Of a stretch of DNA of 26,051 nt, positions 3,624 to 25,907 are shown in pieces (the stretch's first letter is position 1; every line of letters begins with the position of its first letter). The position numbers and the translations under genes were made by a program. The stretch is from a virus (taxonomy: Duplodnaviria; Heunggongvirae; Uroviricota; Caudoviricetes). The stretch covers positions 1 through 26,051 of IMG/VR virus record IMGVR_UViG_3300015186_000011. One strand, written 5' to 3'. Under the pieces are notes generated by a model. That model saw nothing but the letters and a program-made list of their open reading frames with translations. It was not told where the DNA came from and did no database searches.

Positions 3624-3785
3624 ATGAAAAAAGCATTTGCTGCACTGTTCGTTTTGTTGTCTCTGGTAGCTTCAACTCAGGCCTTTGCCGGTCGTTGTCA
3701 GCACGACAGCGACACTGCTGCTGACGGCTCCCGCTGCGGTGGGCGTTCTGCGGATTCCCGCCCGGGCGGCGGTGGCATTCGTTAA
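3624..3785 (+). CDS. Small putative secreted peptide (53 aa) with N-terminal signal peptide
   Basis: MKKAFAALFVLLSLVASTQAFA has signal-peptide character with an AxA cleavage motif. The mature part is Gly/Arg/Asp-rich with 2 Cys. RBS is weak and the gene is short, so confidence is low. Confidence 0.4.
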   Translation: MKKAFAALFVLLSLVASTQAFAGRCQHDSDTAADGSRCGGRSADSRPGGGGIR

Positions 3786-3807
3786 AAACAAGGCCGCGAA
3801 AGCGGCC

Positions 3808-3821
3808 TGTGACATGTCACG
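3808..3821. promoter_or_regulatory. Copy 1 of the 14-bp palindromic motif CGTGACATGTCACA (read on the minus strand), between convergent genes
   Basis: Perfect 12-bp palindrome GTGACATGTCAC at 3809-3820, just after a GGCCGC-GAAA-GCGGCC hairpin (3792-3807). The identical 14-mer recurs at 22254-22267 and 24519-24532. Confidence 0.6.
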
Positions 3822-3833
3822 ATAGTTTCGTTT

Positions 3834-4092
3834 TGCACATCCCTGTGCCGCCGCCCGTCAGAAGAACCCTGCCTTGTCGTTGATGTACTCCGCGTGCGTC
3901 TGGATATCACGCAGGCATTTGCTCACACCAACGATGTAACAGAACATGGTGGTCAGCTCCGCCGCCGCGCCCGATACATCGTGCCCGTCTTCCTGTAACT
4001 GGTTCAGCAGATTCATCAGCAGTGAGTTCTCCGTCAGACCGAGAACACCAGACGGAGAATGAATCAGACTGCGGTAGCCGGGCTTCAATGGA
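3834..4092. repeat. Right arm of the ~260-bp inverted repeat (partner 2373..2631)
   Basis: See left arm; covers the 3' end of the minus-strand antirepressor gene plus ~24 bp downstream. Confidence 0.7.
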
Positions 4093-4802
4093 TAACCATA
4101 ACATTTTGTCTGTGTTTTAATTGCCTCACGAAGCGCATCTAACATCTTGACTGCCACTTCATCATTCTCTGATGCAGATCCAGCAGGGAGATACTCCCCT
4201 TCAAGCGGAACCCGAGCAACAAGAGACAACGCTTCGGCAAATTGATCTTCACCAATTTCTTTGTACGAACAGCCAAAATGAGATTTCAGTGACGACCACA
4301 TGGTGATCATCGCCTTAGCCTGTTTTTCTTTTGGCAGAGACTGACCGCGACTCATGACGAGTTGTTTAATGGCTTCCTGCTGTTCAGTTGTTATTTTACC
4401 CGGCAACGCCTTTTTAGCTTTGCGTGGGTTAACCACATGGCCTTTAGTCCAGTACTCGTAGAGCACATCGTCACACTCTTCCTGATACTGGATTACCTTG
4501 TCGCGGATTTCAGGGCGGACTTTGTTAGGGCTGATGGTTTGCAGCCAACCTGCAAGTTTGCGTAAAGCAAGACAGATAACCAGACGACGCTGAGTATCAC
4601 CGGGGAGCTGAATGGTCATTTCGACCATGCAGCTCTTAAAGCGTTGTTGCAACTTGCGGAACTGCGTTTTCCAGTCCAGCCCCATACCTTCAACGACTGG
4701 TTTCATTGGGGTGTATGGTTCGCCGTTATGATTGACAACATAAAGCTCTGCGCCGTGGAATGGCACGTTGATAGTAGATACCGCTGTTGCTATACTCGTC
4801 AT
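3858..4802 (-). CDS. ant: P22 Ant-like antirepressor (AntA / P22_AR_N-type N-terminal domain plus shared C-terminal domain)
   Basis: 314-aa ORF with AGGAA RBS. N-terminus ...GAELYVVNHNGEPYTPMKPVVEGMGLDWKTQFRKL is antirepressor N-domain-like. It sits immediately downstream of an Arc-like gene, as in P22 immI. Confidence 0.75.
   Translation of the reverse strand: MTSIATAVSTINVPFHGAELYVVNHNGEPYTPMKPVVEGMGLDWKTQFRKLQQRFKSCMVEMTIQLPGDTQRRLVICLALRKLAGWLQTISPNKVRPEIRDKVIQYQEECDDVLYEYWTKGHVVNPRKAKKALPGKITTEQQEAIKQLVMSRGQSLPKEKQAKAMITMWSSLKSHFGCSYKEIGEDQFAEALSLVARVPLEGEYLPAGSASENDEVAVKMLDALREAIKTQTKCYGYPLKPGYRSLIHSPSGVLGLTENSLLMNLLNQLQEDGHDVSGAAAELTTMFCYIVGVSKCLRDIQTHAEYINDKAGFF
4768..4796 (+). promoter_or_regulatory. 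Sigma70-like promoter (TTGATA-17 bp-TATACT) firing antisense across the ant translation start
   Basis: -35 TTGATA 4768-4773, 17-bp spacer, -10 TATACT 4791-4796. Predicted start near 4803, directly opposite the ant start codon (4800-4802) and RBS. Confidence 0.5.
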
Positions 4803-4877
4803 GTCGTTAATTCCTATACGTAGTTTTACGATACTGAAGCCCTGACGGTCTGGCCACCGTGGGGCTTCGCTGTTTTA
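4803..4877 (+). ncRNA. sar: Candidate sar-like antisense small RNA (~75 nt) complementary to the ant ribosome-binding region
   Basis: A promoter at 4768-4796 and an intrinsic terminator on the same strand (nested hairpin GAAGCCC..ACGGT-ctggcc-ACCGT..GGGCTTC at 4836-4868, then GCTGTTTTAT) bracket a ~75-nt transcript in the arc-ant intercistronic region. This mirrors the sar antisense RNA of P22 immI. Confidence 0.45.
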
Positions 4878-5042
4878 TGCCACGCTATTCTTCTCACCAG
4901 TGAGTCCATACACTTTCCTCAGCTGATAGATAATCTCTGTATTGAACTTTCGGCATTCTTTTTCGCCATTTCTTTCAATAGCTAACTTCACATCGTCCGG
5001 AAAACGAACTCGTCGTTGACACATCTCTTTTGCTTTTTGCAT
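4875..5042 (-). CDS. arc: Arc-like ribbon-helix-helix repressor (55 aa)
   Basis: ATG at 5040-5042 with a strong TAAGGAGA Shine-Dalgarno (the track ORF starts at an upstream GTG). Product MQKAKEMCQRRVRFPDDVKLAIERNGEKECRKFNTEIIYQLRKVYG resembles P22 Arc (..FNLRWPREVLDLVRKVAEENGRSVNSEIYQRV..). It lies upstream of ant and divergent from an Mnt-like gene. Confidence 0.65.
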   Translation of the reverse strand: MQKAKEMCQRRVRFPDDVKLAIERNGEKECRKFNTEIIYQLRKVYGLTGEKNSVA

Positions 5043-9274: not shown

Positions 9275-11991
9275 TATTTAGATCCCCACGAAAAGTAATC
9301 TTTAAATTTGTCCATACGTTCGTTATGCAGGCGCTGATACTGCTCATCCAGAGCGCGATGCTTGTCTTTGAAGTTTCGTATAGCCTGTCCACGCATAATT
9401 TCTTCCTGCTCGTACTGCTCCCATTCCTGCTGCATTTTCTTATAAGGTTCCCAATCTTCTAGTGATGGTTCCCAACGCATAGGACGCCCATGTTTGTTAT
9501 AAAACGGCTGGACCCGATCGATGCCATTTTCATCCTTAGTTCTTACCATAATGGCGTAATCACCATTACGAGGTGTTAACACGTCAGGGGTTATGAATAA
9601 TTCTCCATTAATACGACTCTCAGGGGTTTTTGTCTCAACTACAGGAGCATTACCTGACGTGATCCCAAGCAACGTCGGACTGGTTGTTATAATCTCTTTG
9701 CGCTCACCGTACATCAGCCGTTCTTTTTCAGCTTTCCACTGCGCCGCCTGCCAGCCTGACGGCCCATATTGATAAAGCGCCTCCGGTGCATATTTCATAA
9801 ACTGCGCTTCTCCGTTAACCTCGCTGATACTCCAGGTGCGGGCTATCTGCTGGTTGGTCATTTGCTTCGCTACGTCAGCGTTACCACCAGCAACGCGGTA
9901 GTTAATGTCATACAGCGTCTGATAGTCATTACGGAATCTAGCTGCTTCCGGCGTCTGGTCATCCGCAGACGGATCCCAACGGAACCACTGCGCCATATTG
10001 CTGACAGCAGAATTCATCGCCTTGCTGCGATCATTTTTGTACTCTTTTGAACTCTGCGTTGATGCCAATTGAGCTTTAAGAGCATCGGTCTGGTTGTACG
10101 TAAGGTTCTGCGCCTGCTCGATAGCCGCATCAGCAGACATGCCAGAATCAGTTAGTTGCTTAACAGTCAGATAAAAACCCTGCATATCCTTCGGCATATT
10201 TCCAATAGATGCATTGTCTGTTTCATATAACCGACTAAACAGTTCCGCCGCATTTTTAACCACTTCCTGATTGCTGGATCGGGATACTGCTGAAAGCTGC
10301 GTGATGACCTGCGAAGGCATTATGCCAGTCTGAGCCACAAGCCGAACAACCCCATCATGAGTGGAGGCATCATTAATACGAAAGTTCTGCGCCATTTCTG
10401 TGTAATCAGCAGCTTTCTGCATTGACTTGTTGCTTGGGTCTAATTTTTCACCTATTGTCAGCGCCTCATTGAATCTGCGTGAATCCCGTTGCGCCTGAAT
10501 TGCTTCATTTGATCTCTGAAGCAATGCAGACAATTTTCCGTAAGCATCGAGTTTTAACGCATAGTGAGGATCGTTAACCTCAGGCTTCACTTTCTGCATT
10601 TCTTCTTGCTGCTGAGAAGGAGGCAAATACTGAATTGCCTGGAATATTCTCGCGTTATCAATCGCTATATCCAGTTGATTGATTATTTTATCTGCGTTTT
10701 TTCCATACCCCCTGATGATGGTCTCCTGAGCCGGTATATAATCTGGAACCTCACCGTTATATAGCTGTGCCATGGTGTTATTAATAGCTGGCTCAAGCTG
10801 TTCTAATATTAACTTCCTTTGCTTTTCTATCTGACTATTAGCAAGGTTATCTATTTGATAAATAGTCAGCGGATCCATTCCAGTTTTATTTTTTCTATAT
10901 CGGGAAAGCCACCCTTGTGTTTCTGATGGAAGATTTCGGATAAATTCTTCTTCTGATATTTCACCTTTACGTGGATCACCGACTTTGGCGATCAGTTTAT
11001 CCACGTTACCCATCCCCCAGTTATATGCTGCTCCGGTCAATATTTCGGAACCGTACTTACCATACAGTTGATTTACATAGTCACTGGCGAGCATTTCATG
11101 CTGTTGTTCGTCCGTAGGGTTGTATTCAACGCCACGCTTGGCCGCCAGTTCTTTTCCTGTGCCCGGCATTAACTGGTATTTCCCCTGTGCTCTCTCTCCA
11201 GAAGATGTTATCGGTCCCTCAAGAAGACTACCATCAGGATTAAAATGTCGATCACCTGATTCAACAAGGCGTATGGCACGCATGTCCATGCCTCCAGAAT
11301 CATTTTTCTGAAACAGACCATTTAGCCATCCTTCTGGATTGGCAGCGGCATAATTCTTCGCCCGCATTTCTGTGGCACTGCGATCATCACTTTCTATTTC
11401 TTCCAGAATGCGTTCTTGTGACCATCCCCTGGCAGCTCCATATCTGGCAATGGCTACCATTCTGGAATTTCGGGCTAAGGTGGCAGTTTGCGGGTCATTC
11501 CAGGCATCCGCTTCATTTTGTATCCATAATTTTCTCGTTGCCTGATATTGCTCATCTTCATAGGCATTTGTCTGCCCTATCTCATGTCTGAGAACTCCAG
11601 TACTGAACTGAATTTTCTGTGTTCTGGCTTGTTGCAAAAACATATTTCTTGCTGCTTCATCAGTCAATGAAGCAGCTATTTCTTCCACATCCTGATCAAA
11701 TCCAGATATGTACTCTTGCCCCTTACCAATCGCATTTTTGCCTTGTTGTGCATAAAAACCGGTTTGAGGGTTATAAAGACGTTCATTGCTGCGCTGATTA
11801 AGCTGAAGGATGGCATCCTGAGACAATGCAACATTCGCTTTCTGCCTGGCTTCACCATATGCCACCGCATACTGATCTGCGACATTCGCCAGCACCTGAC
11901 CTGCTTGAGGAACATCGAAGGTCTGAAAACCACCGGTTTGCACACCACGACTTTGCACCTGACGTCCGGATATTGTTGGTACGACTGGCAT
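9274..11991 (-). CDS. Internal virion protein with a soluble lytic transglycosylase (SLT) domain (906 aa)
   Basis: True start is probably the ATG at 11991 (MPVVPTISG..), with GGAGG 6 nt upstream and a TAATG overlap with the preceding gene; the track ORF extends to 12066. SLT signature LVESGDRHFNP...SSGERAQGKYQLMPGTGKELA...TGAAYNWGMGNV lies at roughly 11000-11310. Confidence 0.65.
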   Translation of the reverse strand: MPVVPTISGRQVQSRGVQTGGFQTFDVPQAGQVLANVADQYAVAYGEARQKANVALSQDAILQLNQRSNERLYNPQTGFYAQQGKNAIGKGQEYISGFDQDVEEIAASLTDEAARNMFLQQARTQKIQFSTGVLRHEIGQTNAYEDEQYQATRKLWIQNEADAWNDPQTATLARNSRMVAIARYGAARGWSQERILEEIESDDRSATEMRAKNYAAANPEGWLNGLFQKNDSGGMDMRAIRLVESGDRHFNPDGSLLEGPITSSGERAQGKYQLMPGTGKELAAKRGVEYNPTDEQQHEMLASDYVNQLYGKYGSEILTGAAYNWGMGNVDKLIAKVGDPRKGEISEEEFIRNLPSETQGWLSRYRKNKTGMDPLTIYQIDNLANSQIEKQRKLILEQLEPAINNTMAQLYNGEVPDYIPAQETIIRGYGKNADKIINQLDIAIDNARIFQAIQYLPPSQQQEEMQKVKPEVNDPHYALKLDAYGKLSALLQRSNEAIQAQRDSRRFNEALTIGEKLDPSNKSMQKAADYTEMAQNFRINDASTHDGVVRLVAQTGIMPSQVITQLSAVSRSSNQEVVKNAAELFSRLYETDNASIGNMPKDMQGFYLTVKQLTDSGMSADAAIEQAQNLTYNQTDALKAQLASTQSSKEYKNDRSKAMNSAVSNMAQWFRWDPSADDQTPEAARFRNDYQTLYDINYRVAGGNADVAKQMTNQQIARTWSISEVNGEAQFMKYAPEALYQYGPSGWQAAQWKAEKERLMYGERKEIITTSPTLLGITSGNAPVVETKTPESRINGELFITPDVLTPRNGDYAIMVRTKDENGIDRVQPFYNKHGRPMRWEPSLEDWEPYKKMQQEWEQYEQEEIMRGQAIRNFKDKHRALDEQYQRLHNERMDKFKDYFSWGSK

Positions 11992-18981: not shown

Positions 18982-19274
18982 TCCTGTTCACTGGCCTCTT
19001 TGGCCATCTTCAAATACTGTTCAGGGCAATGCGCCATAACGCGCTGAAACAGTTCCAGCGCCAGATTGCGTTGCCCCTCATTAAATGCCATTGCCATAGC
19101 GTCCATCGGTGAGATAGCGGAAAACACACGGCCTTTCTCCAGCACCGACCAGACAACGCGACGCCCCTGTTCACTGCTCATGACAAAGCGAATGTCATCA
19201 ATTTCACGCTGTGCCATGTCACGTTGTTTACGGGCGTTTTCTTCTTTCAGTTGATCATCTTCGTAATCTGTCAT
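18978..19274 (-). CDS. Hypothetical small protein (98 aa) between portal and scaffold genes
   Basis: Start overlaps the portal stop and the stop overlaps the scaffold start; unknown function. Confidence 0.45.
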   Translation of the reverse strand: MTDYEDDQLKEENARKQRDMAQREIDDIRFVMSSEQGRRVVWSVLEKGRVFSAISPMDAMAMAFNEGQRNLALELFQRVMAHCPEQYLKMAKEASEQE

Positions 19275-21197: not shown

Positions 21198-21277
21198 TAT
21201 TACCAATTTAACCACATATGATTTATTTATCGTAGAAGGTTGACATTTGACGCGTGAATTATTACCTTTCAGGTAAC
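21198..21277 (-). promoter_or_regulatory. Conserved bipartite upstream element (copy B) ahead of the portal operon
   Basis: Plus-strand tattacc 21198-21204, aaccacatatg 21210-21220, tattacctttcaggtaa 21260-21276. Same elements and order as 1201-1268 upstream of the tailspike gene. Confidence 0.5.
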
Positions 21278-21878: not shown

Positions 21879-22250
21879 ATGAGTGACAAAGACATTGAAT
21901 CTGAAATTCAGGCTAAAGGTTTAGCCGCGCCGCGCGTTACGCCAGACCATATCGAGAGCATTATTGCTCAGGAGGCATATTTCACAGCAGAAGATGGTGT
22001 CTTTGGCGTAGCCATAAAAGCGAAACATACTGGCGGAGAGGTAAACTACCAGCCGCACGAATCACTTTCTCTGCTGACTTTCTGCGTTCTGGTGCTGCGC
22101 AACGGCTTCACCGTCACCGGAGAGAGCGCCTGTGCAAGCCCGGAAAACTTTGATGCGGAAATTGGTCGGAAGATTGCCCGGCAGAATGCTGTAAACAAAA
22201 TCTGGATGCTTGAAGGTTACTTGCTGAAGCAGAAGTTAAGCGAGCAATAA
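21879..22250 (+). CDS. Phage Gp49 / Sf6 gene-66 family protein (123 aa)
   Basis: MSDKDIESEIQAKGL...LSLLTFCVLVLRNGFTVTGESACASPENFDAEIGRKIARQNAVNKIW matches my recollection of this conserved small phage protein family. Confidence 0.6.
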   Translation: MSDKDIESEIQAKGLAAPRVTPDHIESIIAQEAYFTAEDGVFGVAIKAKHTGGEVNYQPHESLSLLTFCVLVLRNGFTVTGESACASPENFDAEIGRKIARQNAVNKIWMLEGYLLKQKLSEQ

Positions 22251-22253
22251 CAC

Positions 22254-22267
22254 CGTGACATGTCACA
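22254..22267. promoter_or_regulatory. Copy 2 of the 14-bp palindromic motif CGTGACATGTCACA
   Basis: Exact 14-mer starting 4 bp after the Gp49-like stop codon and just before the terminator hairpin. Confidence 0.6.
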
Positions 22268-22270
22268 AAC

Positions 22271-22298
22271 AGCCAGCCGATGAGCTGGCTTTGTTTTA
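22271..22298 (+). terminator. Rho-independent terminator (AGCCAGC-cgatga-GCTGGCT then TTGTTTTA), partly bidirectional
   Basis: 7-bp perfect stem with a U-run on the plus strand and an A-rich tract upstream; sits between the convergent Gp49-like and terminase large subunit genes. Confidence 0.65.
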
Positions 22299-22340: not shown

Positions 22341-23816
22341 TTAAGCATAGGGATCGTAATCTGTAATGGCCTTGCCTTGCTGGTTCTGCTGCCCGGGAAT
22401 TCGCAGACGCTTAGACACAGGGAACGCAAACGTCAGCAGTAGCGCATCGCCTTTACCCGGCGAACGCCCAAGCCGCTCCTTGATATCTTCCTTCGGTTCG
22501 ATAACGATTTTACCGTCCACTCGAACTTTGTACTCTGCCGCCGACAGGTCGTCCGCTGTTTCCTGGTCATCCAGCATGCCGCCCAGCCTCAGCCATGTCT
22601 TGCATGAGTTGAACATCTCCCCACGCTTGTTGAGCATCTGCGGGTCAGTAGACGCGCCACCGAACGGAACAAGTTGCCATGTGCGCCCCCAACCGTCACC
22701 GATTGACTTCAGCCCGGTACCGTAACCGAAGTCGATGAACACCGCGTCAGCCTGATACTGGTCTTCAAAGTCAGCGATACGCTTTGCCATAATCAGATCG
22801 TCAGTGGTCTTGTTGCCGGTCCACAGCACCTTACTGTGCAGCCCCTGCCGCAGATATATCACCGCGTCATCAACACCGGAGTATGCCGGGTCAACGCCGA
22901 TTATCACCGGAGCATGTGCAACCTGCGCAGCGGTGACCACCCGTTTCATTGCCTCGTCAGTAAGTCCGGTAGGGATAAACTGCAATTCAGATGCATCCGG
23001 GAATATGCCGCGCACACGGATTTTAACGAAGTCGCTATCTTCCCCGTAGTCATCAACCCATTTCTGCAACTGCTGTTTGTTAGTGCCTTCCACCGTCCGG
23101 CTGTCAATCTGCGCAGTTTTCCAGCGGTGTTTATATTTGCGGAAACATTCGCGGAAACGTCCGGTATTACGCGTCGGGTTTCCGAACGCCACCCAGATAA
23201 TCTCAGTGTCTTCGTCCGTTAGCGCACCCTCGGCAACTTCCCACACCAGATCCGCAATGTTCGACGCTTCATCGAATACCACAATGATGCGTTTGCGCTC
23301 GTTGTGTAGTCCGGCGAATGCCTCAGTGTTGTGCTCAGACCAGGGGATTGCGTCAGCTCGCCACCGCTTGTCGTGTCCAGGATCATTGCTGTACATCGCG
23401 GTAGCGGTACAGGTAAACCAGTCTTTCGTGATAGCAAGGTTCGACCACTTGATAATTTCCGGCCAGGTCTTCGTTCGTAGCTGGTTGTCGGTGTTGGCGG
23501 TCACCACAACCTTACAATCCTCGCAAGTGGACATGCCCCAGTTGATCAGCATTGAGATGAATGCGGATTTACCAATACCGTGACCAGAAGCACGTGCCAG
23601 CATAAGCGGCTGATATCGCGTCTCTGGATTCTGCAGGTGATCACGTATCTCTCGGAACGCATCAGCCTGCCATTGACGTGGGCCGGTAGCATGTGCCAGT
23701 TCAGTCCCCTCTTCCCCCCACGGGAACGCATAGAGGGCATAGCCAAGCGGATCGTGAGTGAACCCTGCAATATCCTCGATCAACTGCTCTTCAGGAGATA
23801 ACGCTGTATCTGTCAC
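22341..23816 (-). CDS. Terminase large subunit (491 aa)
   Basis: Size and order (after the small subunit, before portal); N-terminal ATPase-like region and C-terminal nuclease-like region with conserved acidic residues (VVFDEASN, IIGVDPAYSG). Confidence 0.8.
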   Translation of the reverse strand: MTDTALSPEEQLIEDIAGFTHDPLGYALYAFPWGEEGTELAHATGPRQWQADAFREIRDHLQNPETRYQPLMLARASGHGIGKSAFISMLINWGMSTCEDCKVVVTANTDNQLRTKTWPEIIKWSNLAITKDWFTCTATAMYSNDPGHDKRWRADAIPWSEHNTEAFAGLHNERKRIIVVFDEASNIADLVWEVAEGALTDEDTEIIWVAFGNPTRNTGRFRECFRKYKHRWKTAQIDSRTVEGTNKQQLQKWVDDYGEDSDFVKIRVRGIFPDASELQFIPTGLTDEAMKRVVTAAQVAHAPVIIGVDPAYSGVDDAVIYLRQGLHSKVLWTGNKTTDDLIMAKRIADFEDQYQADAVFIDFGYGTGLKSIGDGWGRTWQLVPFGGASTDPQMLNKRGEMFNSCKTWLRLGGMLDDQETADDLSAAEYKVRVDGKIVIEPKEDIKERLGRSPGKGDALLLTFAFPVSKRLRIPGQQNQQGKAITDYDPYA

Positions 23817-24409
23817 TGATTACCATCCTGACGTTCTTTGAGTCGCTTCCTGGCTGCCGCTATGCGATCAGCAATTGTCACATTCACATTAACATCCAGG
23901 CGTTCTTTGAATGCGTTGACGTCGACGTGCTTACCAATCAGTTCGAGGTTCTTCACCTTGTCAGGCCATTTAATTTTTTTGAGGATTGTCTCTATCGAAT
24001 CCTCGTTCATGTTCATGATGGTCGATGACAGATCAAAGCCACTAAGCGTAGTGCGCCAGATTTTCGGCCACTCGCGGATTGGCTTAAGGCTCCCATCGTC
24101 GTTGAGGATATCAATCACGTCCATCTGGTCGATCTCCACCAGGCGCATGAGAACGTAATCGGCACTGACGCGCATTCGTTTGTTGCGCTCCTCCATCAAC
24201 TCGGCAATCCGTTTTTGAATGCGTTCATCGCGCATCATGACACTGGCTTTAACTGCCGCTGTATTTGGGGAGAATCCTGCGTTAATCGCTGCCTGAGTCT
24301 GGTTTTCAGGCGTTTTGATGTATGACTGGCAATAAGCCTCCTGCATTGCGGTTAGTGGCTTAAATTGCGTTGATTTGCGTTTATAGGTTTTAGGTTCAGC
24401 AGGCATCAT
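23813..24409 (-). CDS. Terminase small subunit (~198 aa, Terminase_2-like)
   Basis: Probable start is the ATG pair MMPAEP.. at 24409 with a GGTGG RBS (track ORF extends to 24487). AINAGFSPNTAAVKASVMMRDERIQKRIAEL resembles the small-terminase HTH region. Stop overlaps the large subunit start. Confidence 0.7.
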   Translation of the reverse strand: MMPAEPKTYKRKSTQFKPLTAMQEAYCQSYIKTPENQTQAAINAGFSPNTAAVKASVMMRDERIQKRIAELMEERNKRMRVSADYVLMRLVEIDQMDVIDILNDDGSLKPIREWPKIWRTTLSGFDLSSTIMNMNEDSIETILKKIKWPDKVKNLELIGKHVDVNAFKERLDVNVNVTIADRIAAARKRLKERQDGNQ

Positions 24410-24451
24410 AACCACCCTGGTAATTGTTACCGTTGTGGTAATAGTACCATG

Positions 24452-24478
24452 CAAAATAAAGCCGCCATAGTTGGCGGC
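24452..24478 (-). terminator. Rho-independent terminator upstream of the terminase genes (tR'-like position)
   Basis: Minus strand GCCGCCA-acta-TGGCGGC followed by TTTATTTTG, between the 115-aa zinc-ribbon gene and the small terminase gene. Confidence 0.65.
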
Positions 24479-24518
24479 AGTATTCAAAACCCATCAAATT
24501 CATCATGCATAATCTACT

Positions 24519-24532
24519 CGTGACATGTCACA
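24519..24532. promoter_or_regulatory. Copy 3 of the 14-bp palindromic motif CGTGACATGTCACA, overlapping the stop codon of the zinc-ribbon gene
   Basis: Exact 14-mer; each half contains GTGACA, a 5/6 match to the -35 hexamer TTGACA, in both orientations. Confidence 0.6.
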
Positions 24533-24875
24533 CTATTAATTTAGTTTCATGCCAGCCTTTAGTCACCCAGCATTGCGAGTCACCATTACACGGGCATGAA
24601 TTAACGGGAACTTTCTCGCCGCACTTACCGCAACGTTTTCTGCTAATCGATTTTATACGCCCGCGCACGCGTGCATCATCCTGGCGGATCAGTAACGCTA
24701 TATACTCCCCAAATTCGTAAGGCGCACGCCCGGGGCGACGCGTGGCACAGTTACGCTCCAGCATTTCCTGCTCCTGCTTATCCAGCACCAGTTCAATTTT
24801 GCGCTCACCGGCGGCGGACTGCCGAGCGCGCTGCGCGGCTTTGCGTTCTGCGGGGGATTTAGCCACGAATCGCAC
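24528..24875 (-). CDS. Hypothetical basic protein with a C-terminal zinc-ribbon motif (115 aa from a GTG start; alternatively 78 aa from an internal ATG with AGGAG RBS)
   Basis: C-terminal CGKCGEKVPVNSCPCNGDSQC four-cysteine cluster; Arg/Lys-rich N-terminus. Last gene before the terminator and terminase genes, the position a late-gene regulator would occupy. Function is speculative. Confidence 0.45.
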   Translation of the reverse strand: MRFVAKSPAERKAAQRARQSAAGERKIELVLDKQEQEMLERNCATRRPGRAPYEFGEYIALLIRQDDARVRGRIKSISRKRCGKCGEKVPVNSCPCNGDSQCWVTKGWHETKLIV

Positions 24876-24981
24876 TCCACGCCAGATTGATTAATGACTC
24901 CCAGGTAATATAAACCCGGATACCAGCAGCCAGGCCGAAACCAATCACCATGGCATAAAGCAGAGCGTTGCACTTGTTCAT
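24859..24981 (-). CDS. Small hydrophobic peptide (40 aa), translationally coupled to the upstream Ead-like gene
   Basis: ATG at 24981 overlaps the upstream TGA (TGATG) and is preceded by a near-consensus AGGAGGTGA. Product MNKCNALLYAMVIGFGLAAGIRVYITWESLINLAWSAIRG is a single TM-like helix. Not in the ORF track because it is under 60 aa. Confidence 0.4.
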   Translation of the reverse strand: MNKCNALLYAMVIGFGLAAGIRVYITWESLINLAWSAIRG

Positions 24982-25907
24982 CACTTCACCTCCTGCGGCG
25001 GTTCTGGTAGCGGCATCCAGTGAGTTACGTCATCCAAGATATTTCCTGATAAATACGTGAAAGCTCTATATTTTTTGTAATCAATTGGATTTACAACCCA
25101 GTTCCAATATGCGGCCACGATTTCACCTTGACTAAATGCCAGTAACATTTTGGTGTCTTCCGGCATTCGATCACTACAGCTTATCCAACCATCCGGAGTT
25201 GCCGGAGTTGGTCCATCGAATTCGGGCATGTCAGGACCTTTTCTGATAGCTTTAGCCACCTCCAGCGGGTCATCGTAAAGCCAGTCGCCAGTTTGTGGGT
25301 GATTTGCTTCTGCAAGCTGCGCAGCCCATTCAAGACCATCTTTTTGACCTTGGAGATAATCAAGCGGCAACTCTTCATGATTACTTGCAGGTTCGGCACT
25401 ATGAAGCATGGCAGCGTGGCAGGCATCCTCTACGCCTTTAACTGCATCTGCGCAGTAGTTATAGCGATTGCATTCCACTAACTTCTGCTTGAGATTTTCA
25501 ATTGCTTGCGCGACATCATCCTGTATTTCCGGAACTGGCGGAACGGCTGTCTGCTGCTCTCGAACGTCATTAGTCGCTATCGGTTCTGCTGCCAACTGAC
25601 TGGCATATTTGTTAATGGTAACGATAAGCTCTTGCTCGGCCTCATCCAGACAATCACCGATACCTCGCCTGTCACCGTCAAAATCATCGAAATCGGCACG
25701 AATCTTGGCAACCTCCCGGATTGCGGACAACACTTCACCAGGAATAAGCCGAGAGTTGCCAGATAGTGCATTCTGCTCCAGCGATGCCAGAGCAATTCGT
25801 GCCAGTTCTTCCGCTTCTTCTGCTGGCAGTACAACGTTGCTACCAGGTCCGTATGTTTCGCGCCACTGCTGGATTGTCAGCAGGCGTTCTTTGGTAATAG
25901 TGATCAT
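24981..25907 (-). CDS. Ead/Ea22-like protein with C-terminal DUF551 domain (308 aa)
   Basis: C-terminal WISCSDRMPE...YWNW...VTHWMPLPEPP matches the DUF551 pattern common in lambdoid early regions; acidic central region; AAGGA RBS. Confidence 0.65.
   Translation of the reverse strand: MITITKERLLTIQQWRETYGPGSNVVLPAEEAEELARIALASLEQNALSGNSRLIPGEVLSAIREVAKIRADFDDFDGDRRGIGDCLDEAEQELIVTINKYASQLAAEPIATNDVREQQTAVPPVPEIQDDVAQAIENLKQKLVECNRYNYCADAVKGVEDACHAAMLHSAEPASNHEELPLDYLQGQKDGLEWAAQLAEANHPQTGDWLYDDPLEVAKAIRKGPDMPEFDGPTPATPDGWISCSDRMPEDTKMLLAFSQGEIVAAYWNWVVNPIDYKKYRAFTYLSGNILDDVTHWMPLPEPPQEVK

What the first reader, a model, noticed from the sequence alone, without database searches (positions are those of the whole stretch)
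24452..24981. Late-regulator-like layout: zinc-ribbon protein, palindrome, terminator, then terminase
A small basic protein with a four-cysteine ribbon ends exactly at one copy of the GTGACA-containing palindrome, followed about 45 bp later by a strong intrinsic terminator and then the small terminase gene. This resembles the lambda Q / PR' / tR' arrangement, except that lysis genes are absent between the terminator and the terminase genes. Just upstream, a 40-aa hydrophobic peptide with a near-consensus SD is translationally coupled to the Ead/DUF551 gene and is missing from the ORF track.
Basis: inference. Interest (0 to 1): 0.5.

Follow-up and report, generated by a model that had tools for sequence, protein, structure and literature searches.

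The report
Phage DNA-binding protein with matS-like palindromes
The small zinc-ribbon protein, the palindrome at its stop codon and the terminator before the terminase genes are all real, but the evidence points to a ribbon-helix-helix DNA-binding protein paired with a 12-bp site that is the E. coli chromosome-organising site matS minus one base, not to a lambda-Q-type late antiterminator.

Summary
The window is an epsilon15/phiV10-like (Uetakevirus) phage, and every gene in the finding lies on the minus strand. The layout is confirmed: Ead/DUF551 gene, a coupled 40-aa membrane peptide, then a small Cys-rich protein whose TGA stop lies inside GTGACATGTCAC. A strong terminator follows 41 nt later, then TerS/TerL. 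The small protein is most likely 112 aa, starting at GTG 24866.

The palindrome is not a chance match. The window holds three exact copies against about 0.02 expected, and they sit at homologous places in epsilon15 and Tyrion (two plus the split record junction in phiV10). Distant homologues in N15, ZF40, P2-like Yersinia phages and Vibrio phages carry GTGAC-NN-GTCAC at or near their own stop codon. Five of these lineages have exactly three copies per genome.

The Q/PR'/tR' reading is weak. The protein shows no Q homology, and N15 and ZF40 carry separate Q genes. The palindrome-terminator distance varies, with a whole ORF inserted in 25 of 80 relatives. TerS also has its own extended -10 promoter, overlapped by repressor operators, downstream of the terminator. 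The function beyond DNA binding is inferred only.

The parts
24981..25907 (-). Ead/Ea22-like DUF551 gene (308 aa), context gene of the early-right operon
   Evidence: ORF. Pfam DUF551 E 3.3e-21. Annotated as 'ea22 protein' in EC.W1-9.
24859..24981 (-). 40-aa hydrophobic peptide ORF, translationally coupled on both sides (TGATG overlap with the Ead stop; 8-nt overlap with the next gene)
   Evidence: Sequence. phrog_5525 E 7.6e-30. Annotated CDS in EC.W1-9. 50-53% identical homologues in P1-like phages SJ46 and vB_EcoM-813R1.
24528..24866 (-). 112-aa protein: basic N-terminal helix, then a ribbon-helix-helix-like core, then a C-terminal Cys4 zinc ribbon (C79, C82, C91, C99). Homologue of phiV10 p55, epsilon15 gp49 and N15 gp46. 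An alternative 115-aa reading starts at 24875.
24520..24531 (.). Site A: 12-bp palindrome GTGACATGTCAC containing the gene's TGA stop codon; proposed binding site of the 112-aa protein
   Evidence: Exactly conserved in epsilon15 and Tyrion, and split at the record junction in phiV10. Retained at the stop codon in the N15, ZF40 and Yersinia clades with a clade-specific centre. A pyrimidine flanks all 38 half-sites.
24453..24478 (-). Intrinsic terminator (stem 24478-24461, then TTTATTTT). Most likely the end of the early-right operon.
   Evidence: Folding gives -14.5 kcal/mol, z -4.1. The hairpin sequence is conserved in epsilon15 (GCCGCCGACTATGGCGGC) while the 22-41 nt upstream of it is not.
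24441..24449 (-). Candidate extended -10 promoter TGGTACTAT for the TerS-TerL operon
   Evidence: Sequence. Among 80 relatives it reads TGnTACTAT with n = G, T or A, or TGGTATTAT. Epsilon15 has TGTTACTAT. Assigned by inference; no transcript data.
24408..24442 (.). Two tandem repressor-operator-like sites (ATTACC-N5-GGTAAT type) at 24442-24426 and 24424-24408. They overlap the -10 element and the TerS ribosome-binding site and start codon.
   Evidence: 7 sites in the window against 0.75 expected. The same motif is annotated as a 'repressor' binding site at epsilon15 12-27 and six other places.
23813..24409 (-). Small terminase subunit gene
   Evidence: PF03592 E 1e-29. Annotations.
22341..23816 (-). 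Large terminase subunit gene
   Evidence: ORF. Annotated TerL in TL-2011b, EC.W1-9 and phiV10.
22255..22296 (.). Site B: palindrome 22255-22266 abutting a bidirectional terminator (about 22270-22296), between TerL and a convergent plus-strand gene (21879-22250)
   Evidence: Homologous sites at phiV10 2262, epsilon15 2142 and Tyrion 2702. In relatives the flank on the palindrome side varies.
3787..3820 (.). Site C: palindrome 3809-3820 abutting a bidirectional terminator (3787-3806), between the Ant antirepressor gene (3858-4802, minus) and a small plus-strand secreted-peptide gene ending at 3785
   Evidence: The equivalent palindrome + terminator units lie at phiV10 19493, epsilon15 19517 and Tyrion 20377.
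19211..19222 (.). One-mismatch copy (GTGCCATGTCAC) inside a coding region. Status unknown; probably not a site.
   Evidence: The same mismatched copy is at phiV10 5306.

Best explanation
The 112-aa gene product is a sequence-specific DNA-binding protein. It has a basic N-terminal helix, a ribbon-helix-helix core that should dimerise, and a C-terminal four-cysteine zinc ribbon. Its cognate site is the two-fold symmetric element Y-GTGAC-NN-GTCAC-R, and one copy overlaps the gene's own stop codon.

The protein is made as the last product of the early-right operon, translationally coupled to the 40-aa peptide. It then occupies the three copies in this phage: 24520-24531, 22255-22266 and 3809-3820. 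All three lie at operon ends beside intrinsic terminators.

The terminator at 24478-24453 ends early transcription. The TerS-TerL operon starts from its own extended -10 promoter, which is occluded by the prophage repressor in lysogens.

So the protein acts on DNA at operon boundaries. It most likely works as a boundary, roadblock-type or site-bridging factor, as RHH proteins and MatP do. It does not act as a promoter-loaded Q-type antiterminator.

Shown: the layout, the conservation, the statistics of the sites and the gene-site linkage. Weakly supported: the RHH fold. Inferred: the binding itself, dimerisation, the promoter assignment and the downstream consequence.
For: Site statistics. There are 3 exact copies in the window against about 0.023 expected, and none at other spacings. 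Copies sit at homologous positions in epsilon15, phiV10 and Tyrion although the flanks have diverged.

Gene-site linkage. In the epsilon15-like IMG/VR loci, nearly every stretch that reaches past the stop codon has the exact palindrome there. The N15 clade carries GTGAC-TG-GTCAC at the stop (52 hits in 50 loci). The Yersinia P2-like clade carries GTGAC-GC-GTCAC (57 hits in 50 loci). ZF40 has the site directly after its TAA. In the Vibrio clade the site lies 226-235 nt downstream.

Three exact copies per genome (expected 0.02-0.05) in each of five lineages: epsilon15-like (window, epsilon15, Tyrion), N15, K303 and ZF40.

DNA-type symmetry. All 38 half-sites carry a pyrimidine at position -1. 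The three Vibrio sites would give C.A mismatches if read as an extended RNA stem.

Site identity. The site equals consensus matS GTGACATTGTCAC (PMC8669397; definition in PMC3603311) minus one central base.

Own promoter for TerS. TGnTACTAT with variable n, plus two operator-like sites.

Against: The predicted beta-strand residues differ between clades although the GTGAC arm is invariant. Recognition would therefore have to rest on the conserved basic helix (A6, E7, R8, R13), which is an inference.

Some homologues lack a palindrome at their stop (L220, L227, L295). The Yersinia phage has only one exact copy.

Site contexts are heterogeneous across lineages: next to terminators, 9-19 nt upstream of start codons, or inside coding regions. 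No single downstream effect is evident.
Confidence: 0.6

Rival explanations
1. Antitermination. The protein recognises the palindrome, either as DNA in a promoter spacer (Q-like) or as a small hairpin in the nascent RNA (N/nut-like; the N-terminus AERKAAQRARQ resembles an arginine-rich motif). It then makes RNA polymerase read through the terminator into the terminase and other late genes.
For: The gene is the last early gene and lies directly upstream of the late genes. A terminator follows the palindrome at 0-41 nt on one side of each of the three sites in the window, phiV10 and epsilon15 (one epsilon15 site needs an imperfect hairpin). The same holds at +114 nt before the N15 immA operon and at +230 nt before the K303 holin gene. 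A weak promoter-like TTAATA-17-TAGATT would place the palindrome in its spacer. GUGA-CNNG-UCAC can form a 4-bp tetraloop hairpin. No Q homologue is annotated in epsilon15-like genomes.
Against: There is no similarity to Q families, and the fold is RHH-like. N15 and ZF40 have their own Q-like genes. The promoter-like hexamers are not conserved, and 25 of 80 relatives have an ORF starting 9-10 nt after the palindrome. At site B the palindrome lies downstream of the terminator in the late direction. Flanking bases follow DNA two-fold symmetry, not RNA pairing. The stems show no covariation. TerS has its own promoter downstream of the terminator. A PerC-like activator is annotated in the early-left operon of relatives as an alternative late regulator.
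Confidence: 0.15
2. A phage-private MatP/matS-like system. The protein is a MatP-type RHH protein that binds three dispersed matS-like sites. It bridges them, or uses them to displace or unload host chromosome-organising machinery such as MukBEF from phage DNA. Alternatively it competes with MatP at host matS sites. The one-base-shorter spacer keeps the sites invisible to host MatP in lysogens.
Confidence: 0.2
3. The palindrome is not bound by this protein. It is either a host-factor site or a short conserved 'linker' at which mosaic modules recombine, and it travels with the gene only because it overlaps the stop codon.
For: At all three sites, variable DNA abuts the palindrome. Class 1 and class 2 relatives diverge right after site A. 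At sites B and C the terminator + palindrome units carry many different flanks. The palindrome resembles host sites: matS in its arms, and the SlmA site in its 12-bp length (the latter from my own knowledge).
Against: The C-terminal residues and the codon before the stop differ between clades, yet the site is kept. In Vibrio phages and in L295 the site is detached from the stop but still nearby. Copies inside conserved coding regions (N15 repA, ZF40 cII-like gene) are not module junctions. A host-factor site would not be expected to track one phage gene across five lineages.
Confidence: 0.07

Closest known systems
MatP / matS of E. coli and relatives (Ter macrodomain organiser)
   Same: The 5-bp arms GTGAC/GTCAC are identical and the flanking bases are pyrimidine/purine. 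The element is bound (inferred here) by an RHH-containing dimer. Several sites are dispersed on one replicon. MatP-matS is the second-best structural match (PMC8669397, PMC3603311).
   Different: The site is 12 bp with a 2-bp centre, not 13 bp with an RNY centre. The protein is 112 aa and has neither the four-helix bundle nor the coiled coil; it carries a zinc ribbon instead. No significant sequence similarity was found. It is encoded by phages and one site overlaps its own gene.
Small phage/plasmid ribbon-helix-helix regulators (P22 Arc and Mnt, CopG, RepB-RCR_reg PF10723, RHH antitoxins)
   Different: No Pfam model matches the window protein. It has an added Cys4 zinc ribbon. Its sites are single 12-bp palindromes dispersed at operon ends and in coding regions, not tandem subsites over one promoter.
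Lambda Q with the QBE / PR' / tR' module
   Same: The gene is the last early gene and lies next to the late genes. A DNA element sits immediately 3' of the gene and is followed by an intrinsic terminator. The protein contains zinc-binding cysteines.
   Different: No homology to Q. No conserved promoter surrounds the element. The distance to the terminator varies. The gene coexists with true Q-like genes in N15 and ZF40. Additional sites are not at promoters. The late operon has its own promoter after the terminator.
P2 Ogr / P4 Delta zinc-finger late activators
   Same: A small phage zinc-binding protein with partially dyad-symmetric DNA targets (TGT-N12-ACA, from my own knowledge).
   Different: The cysteine spacing differs. 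There is no RHH in Ogr. Ogr sites are centred near -55 of late promoters, whereas the sites here show no fixed promoter geometry. The P2-like Yersinia phages have the palindrome only at the gene's own stop, not at late promoters.
N15 SopB centromere repeats IR1-IR4
   Same: Dispersed inverted repeats in N15 that lie near regulatory regions, one of them inside repA.
   Different: The sequence is GTGCGACC-NN-GGTCGCAC (PMC7205306), not GTGAC-NN-GTCAC. They are bound by a ParB-type protein. The N15 copies of the present palindrome (28550, 33237, 39269) are separate sites.

Membership tests
Lambda-type Q antiterminators | Sequence or profile membership in a Q family | tested here: not met
   No Pfam, NCBIfam or PDB-sequence hit. 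Only phrog_536, 'transcriptional regulator'.
Lambda-type Q antiterminators | Binding element embedded between the -35 and -10 hexamers of a strong late promoter just downstream of the gene | tested here: not met
   Only a weak TTAATA-17-TAGATT (8 of 12, below the scan threshold). It is not conserved in epsilon15 or in the 25 of 80 relatives with an ORF directly after the palindrome.
Lambda-type Q antiterminators | Terminator downstream that is read through only when the protein is present | not testable with these tools
   The terminator exists and is conserved. Read-through needs an experiment.
MatP/matS | 13-bp site GTGAC-RNY-GTCAC | tested here: not met
   All sites have a 2-bp centre. There are no N3-spaced sites in the window, epsilon15, phiV10, N15, ZF40 or Tyrion; K303 has one.
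MatP/matS | Ribbon-helix-helix DNA-binding core | tested here: inconclusive
MatP/matS | N-terminal four-helix bundle and C-terminal coiled coil; detectable sequence homology | tested here: not met
   The protein is 112 aa with one basic helix before the strand and a zinc ribbon after it. hhalign probability 0.1, E 0.5.
MatP/matS | Multiple dispersed sites on the replicon | tested here: met
   Three per genome in five lineages.
Ribbon-helix-helix (Arc/MetJ/CopG) superfamily | Strand-helix-helix topology with alternating hydrophobic residues in the strand and a turn between the helices | tested here: inconclusive
Ribbon-helix-helix (Arc/MetJ/CopG) superfamily | Dimer binds a symmetric operator | not testable with these tools
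   Inferred from the gene-site linkage and the two-fold symmetric flanks.
Lambda N / nut-type RNA-based antitermination | Target is an RNA hairpin, so stem pairing rather than DNA symmetry is conserved | tested here: not met
   The stem is invariant with no covariation. The flanks obey Y...R DNA symmetry, and the Vibrio sites would give C.A mismatches.
Intrinsic (rho-independent) terminator | G+C-rich hairpin followed by a U-run | tested here: met
   7-bp stem with 6 G-C pairs, a 4-nt loop and TTTATTTT. Folding gives -14.5 kcal/mol, z -4.1.

The most novel reading that the evidence does not exclude
These phages carry a private, orthogonal version of the host MatP/matS system. It consists of a minimal RHH-zinc-ribbon protein and three 'matS minus one base' sites per genome. 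The protein is switched on only in lytic growth, and the system organises or bridges phage DNA or removes host SMC (MukBEF)/Ter machinery from it. The one-base-shorter spacer explains how prophages can have such sites although true matS is strictly avoided in prophages.
Probability: 0.2. Interest if true: 0.85.

Novelty: new variant of a known kind. Interest (0 to 1): 0.6.

Why it matters
The protein family (phrog_536; epsilon15 gp49, phiV10 p55, N15 gp46, ZF40 gp22) is widespread in temperate phages of enterobacteria and vibrios. It is labelled only 'transcriptional regulator' or 'hypothetical'.

This analysis gives it a concrete, testable target: Y-GTGAC-NN-GTCAC-R, usually three copies per genome, with one copy fused to the gene's own stop codon.

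How late genes are timed in epsilon15-like phages is unknown. The analysis shows that the terminase operon has its own repressor-controlled promoter, and that the gene-palindrome pair is a separate module. That redirects experiments away from a Q-type model.

If the resemblance to matS reflects mechanism, it would be the first phage-borne analogue of a bacterial chromosome-macrodomain system. It would also explain how such sites coexist with the known avoidance of matS in prophages.

Tried and rejected
1. Prophage-repressor operator. Rejected: the epsilon15 record annotates ATTACC-N5-GGTAAT as the repressor sites, and no palindrome copy lies in the immunity region.

2. cos/pac or genome-end site, suggested because the phiV10 record starts inside the palindrome. 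Rejected: the record was simply linearised after the last gene. Sites in N15, ZF40 and K303 are not near the terminase or cos.

3. N15 SopB centromere. Rejected: the sequence is different (PMC7205306).

4. CRP, LexA and SlmA sites, judged from my own knowledge of their consensus sequences. The spacing or key bases do not fit.

5. Consistent sigma-70 promoter geometry around the palindromes. None was found; there are only scattered -10-like hexamers 2-7 nt downstream.

6. Known RNA family. The only hit is a sub-threshold rseX match (27.8 bits against a threshold of 50).

7. Sequence searches against PDB, Pfam and NCBIfam gave nothing.

8. The first AF2 run, with a shallow alignment, was poor (pLDDT 66), and its Foldseek search was meaningless.

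9. Foldseek on the good model was negative. The afdb50 library was unavailable.

10. Literature. The SPC32H operator paper was not held. The ZX5 paper does not treat this gene. No paper in the library mentions matS-like or MatP-like elements in phages.

11. An IMG/VR scan for the 14-mer was noisy. Of 120 loci, 41 were next to the gene. Many of the rest are site B/C units or chance coding matches such as the peptide R-D-M-S.

Full report
**Context.** The window is an epsilon15/phiV10-like (Uetakevirus) temperate podovirus. The best match is Escherichia phage EC.W1-9, at 98% identity over the query region, followed by TL-2011b and phiV10. All genes of the finding lie on the minus strand. Read in that direction the region is the end of the early-right operon followed by the packaging genes.

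**Observation.** The order on the minus strand is as follows.
- The Ead/DUF551 gene lies at 25907-24981 (Pfam E 3e-21).
- A 40-aa hydrophobic ORF runs from 24981 to 24859. It has a GGAGGTGA ribosome-binding site, and its ATG overlaps the Ead stop.
- A Cys-rich ORF follows, whose TGA stop (24530-24528) lies inside the perfect palindrome GTGACATGTCAC (24531-24520).
- An intrinsic terminator begins 41 nt later. Its stem is 24478-24461, followed by TTTATTTT. Folding gives -14.5 kcal/mol, z -4.1.
- TerS starts at 24409/24406 (PF03592), followed by TerL.

The 40-aa ORF is a real conserved gene. It matches phrog_5525 at E 8e-30 and is annotated in EC.W1-9. It has about 50%-identical homologues in P1-like phages.

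The Cys-rich protein most likely starts at GTG 24866, giving 112 aa. GGAG lies 8 nt upstream of this start, and the start overlaps the peptide's stop by 8 nt. Most of the 120 listed homologues (of 712 found) are 112 aa.

**The palindrome is a conserved cis element.** The exact 12-mer occurs three times in the window, at 3809, 22255 and 24520. About 0.023 copies are expected. No GTGAC/GTCAC pair occurs at any other spacing from 0 to 5.
- Epsilon15 is only about 80% identical at the protein level and has unalignable flanks. It still has the exact 12-mer at the three homologous places: the gp49 stop, after TerL, and the end of the virion operon.
- Tyrion has three copies.
- phiV10 has two copies, plus a third that is split by the arbitrary start of the record.
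- None of the copies lies in the immunity region. The repressor sites annotated in epsilon15 are a different motif, ATTACC-N5-GGTAAT.

**The palindrome travels with the gene.** Distant homologues of the protein (33-65% identity) occur in other phage types. These include the linear-plasmid prophage N15 (gene 46), the Pectobacterium myovirus ZF40 (gp22), P2-like Yersinia phages and Vibrio siphoviruses.
- In 50 N15-clade loci the stop codon lies inside GTGAC-TG-GTCAC.
- In 50 Yersinia-clade loci it lies inside GTGAC-GC-GTCAC.
- In ZF40 TGTGACATGTCACA follows the TAA directly.
- The C-terminal residues differ between clades, so the site is conserved for its own sake.
- In Vibrio phages the site (centre AC, CC or GC) lies 226-235 nt downstream of the gene, with another copy 19 nt before the TerS start codon.
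- Counting whole genomes, N15, K303, ZF40, epsilon15, Tyrion and the window each have exactly three N2-spaced sites, against 0.02-0.05 expected. They have essentially none at other spacings.
- The Yersinia phage has one exact site plus a half-site.
- All 38 half-sites carry a pyrimidine at position -1. The element is therefore Y-GTGAC-NN-GTCAC-R, a pattern of DNA two-fold symmetry. In the Vibrio sites these flanks would be C.A mismatches in an RNA stem.

**The protein.** No Pfam, NCBIfam or PDB-sequence match exists for the window protein. PHROGs places it in phrog_536, 'transcriptional regulator'.
- An alignment spanning three clades (A4) shows several invariant or nearly invariant features: A6-E7-R8...R13 in a basic helix, a hydrophobic-alternating strand (KIELVLD), and two helices. 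It also shows cysteines C79, C82, C91 and C99, plus C40.
- AlphaFold2 on this alignment gives pLDDT 85.
- Foldseek was negative.
- A Vibrio relative has a weak PF10723 (RepB-RCR_reg, RHH-like) hit at E 0.034.

I read this as moderate support for an RHH DNA-binding core preceded by a basic helix and followed by a zinc ribbon.

**The matS resemblance.** E. coli matS is GTGAC[AG]N[TC]GTCAC, with consensus GTGACATTGTCAC (PMC3603311, PMC8669397). The phage element GTGACATGTCAC is that consensus minus one central base. It has the same T...G flanks as the published matS oligonucleotide.
- A profile comparison with E. coli MatP is not significant (probability 0.1, E 0.5). Its best local alignment nevertheless pairs the predicted strand-helix-helix with MatP residues 90-124.
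- True matS is reported to be completely absent from, and avoided in, Escherichia and Salmonella prophages (PMC3603311).
- All phages in the collection that encode a homologue infect Enterobacterales, Vibrio or Aeromonas. To my knowledge these are the orders that possess MatP and MukBEF.
- I found no paper in the library describing matS-like or MatP-like elements in phages.

This is a lead, not a demonstration. The protein lacks MatP's four-helix bundle and coiled coil.

**Why the Q / PR' / tR' reading is weak.**
1. There is no homology to Q, and the fold class differs.
2. N15 and ZF40 have separate Q-like genes.
3. The only promoter-like hexamers around site A (TTAATA-17-TAGATT, 8 of 12) are not conserved.
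4. The stretch between the palindrome and the terminator is 41 nt here and 22 nt in epsilon15, with unrelated sequence. In 25 of 80 close relatives it is replaced by a 70-aa ORF whose start codon lies 9-10 nt after the palindrome.
5. The block from the terminator to TerS is conserved and contains TGnTACTAT. The n position varies (G, T or A), which is the signature of an extended -10 element. This element is overlapped by two ATTACC-N5-GGTAAT-type operator-like sites. The terminase operon therefore very probably has its own repressor-controlled promoter downstream of the terminator, and the terminator is most simply the end of the early-right operon.
6. Sites B and C lie at convergent gene junctions beside bidirectional terminators. 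In ZF40 and N15 some sites lie inside coding regions.
7. A PerC-like activator is annotated in the early-left operon of relatives, so another candidate late regulator exists.

Some points remain in favour of antitermination. A terminator lies within 0-41 nt of all three sites in the window. One lies 114 nt after the N15 site that precedes the immA operon. One lies 230 nt after the Vibrio site that precedes the holin gene. I give antitermination about 0.15.

**Best explanation and its limits.** The most economical reading is a cognate pair: an RHH-zinc-ribbon dimer and its 12- to 14-bp operator. One operator is fused to the gene's 3' end, and usually two more are dispersed in the genome.

In this phage all three operators sit at operon ends. 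I therefore favour action on DNA at transcription-unit boundaries, either as a roadblock or insulator or by bridging of sites. The MatP-like organisation model is the most novel reading that the evidence does not exclude.

The heterogeneity of site contexts across lineages is the main unexplained point. Contexts include positions next to terminators and 9-19 nt upstream of start codons. They also include sites inside repA or a cII-like gene, and next to LexA-box promoters.

Binding, dimerisation, promoter use and any effect on transcription or DNA organisation are inferred and need the experiments listed.

**Verdict.** The feature is a new variant of a known kind: an RHH regulator with an added zinc ribbon and matS-like dispersed sites. 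Interest is moderate to high because it is widespread, uncharacterised and immediately testable.

Noticed in passing
window 24408-24442, 21261-21277, 2692-2708, 1252-1268, 1632-1648: Repressor-operator-like sites (ATTACC-N5-GGTAAT): 7 in the window against 0.75 expected. They sit upstream of late transcription units (TerS, the head-gene block and others), as annotated in epsilon15. This suggests that the late promoters are directly repressed in the lysogen.
   Followed up: partly
L022 10336-10569 (and 24 other IMG/VR loci, e.g. L015-L017, L019-L023): In 25 of 80 close relatives a 70-aa ORF (MPKIRYDLEDMRDNSANFPKEV...) is inserted between the palindrome and the terminator. Its ATG lies 9-10 nt after the palindrome. 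It looks like a moron at the early/late junction.
   Followed up: partly
window 24454-24539 (minus strand): Sub-threshold full-length Rfam match to the Hfq-binding sRNA rseX (27.8 bits, gathering score 50, E 0.08-0.33). It spans exactly from the palindrome to the end of the terminator. It is probably driven by the terminator and AT-rich sequence, but a short transcript here is not excluded.
   Followed up: partly
window 3858-4802 and about 4875-5040 (minus), by homology to TL-2011b gp41-gp42: A P22 immI-like Arc-like repressor + Ant antirepressor pair lies in the late region. The third palindrome copy sits directly after ant. In phiV10, epsilon15 and Tyrion the equivalent copy follows the last virion gene instead.
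   Followed up: partly
L202, L207, L212, L264, L305, L314 (IMG/VR): The exact 14-mer CGTGACATGTCACA forms codons 2-5 (M-R-D-M-S-Q) of a gene whose N-terminus (MRDMSQVLERWAGWA...) recalls, from memory, phage-82/933W-type Q antiterminators. One of these contigs (L264) also carries a distant homologue of the 112-aa protein 12 kb away. This could be regulation of Q, or chance with ascertainment bias.
   Followed up: no
L197, L198, L201, L215, L226, L287 (IMG/VR); L008 5330-5420: In several lineages the palindrome at the gene's stop is followed after 5-8 nt by a TTGAC(T/G) -35 hexamer and a LexA-box-like sequence (TACTGT-N8-ACAG). The next gene therefore looks SOS-controlled, like tum or an antirepressor.
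   Followed up: no
L214 about 10760-10880, L262 about 1880-1960, L233 about 740-800, L243, L300: High-GC phages have iteron-like arrays of GTGAC/GTCAC half-sites. The arrays lie inside ORFs whose N-termini look to me like phage replisome-organiser/DUF1376-type proteins (not scanned against any library), just after a basic ERKRRQRER-type peptide. This recalls the origin repeats inside lambda O. Any relation to the present family is unknown.
   Followed up: partly
L005 (phiV10 NC_007804.2) 41-715: The RefSeq TerS CDS of phiV10 starts at a TTG that makes the protein run through the terminator and the operator sites. The ATG used in TL-2011b, EC.W1-9 and Tyrion (594-nt gene) is far more plausible.
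   Followed up: no
L195+L006 (N15) 28550, 33237, 39269: N15 has three GTGAC-(TG/CA)-GTCAC sites. One is 114 nt upstream of the terminator preceding the immA (antA-icd-antB) operon and is followed by GGGG-TAAAAT. One is inside repA and is invariant across relatives despite synonymous drift around it. One is at the gene 46 stop. All are distinct from the SopB IR1-4 centromeres.
   Followed up: partly
window 19211-19222; phiV10 5306: A one-mismatch copy of the palindrome is conserved inside the small gene downstream of the portal gene. It may be coding coincidence or a weak fourth site.
   Followed up: no
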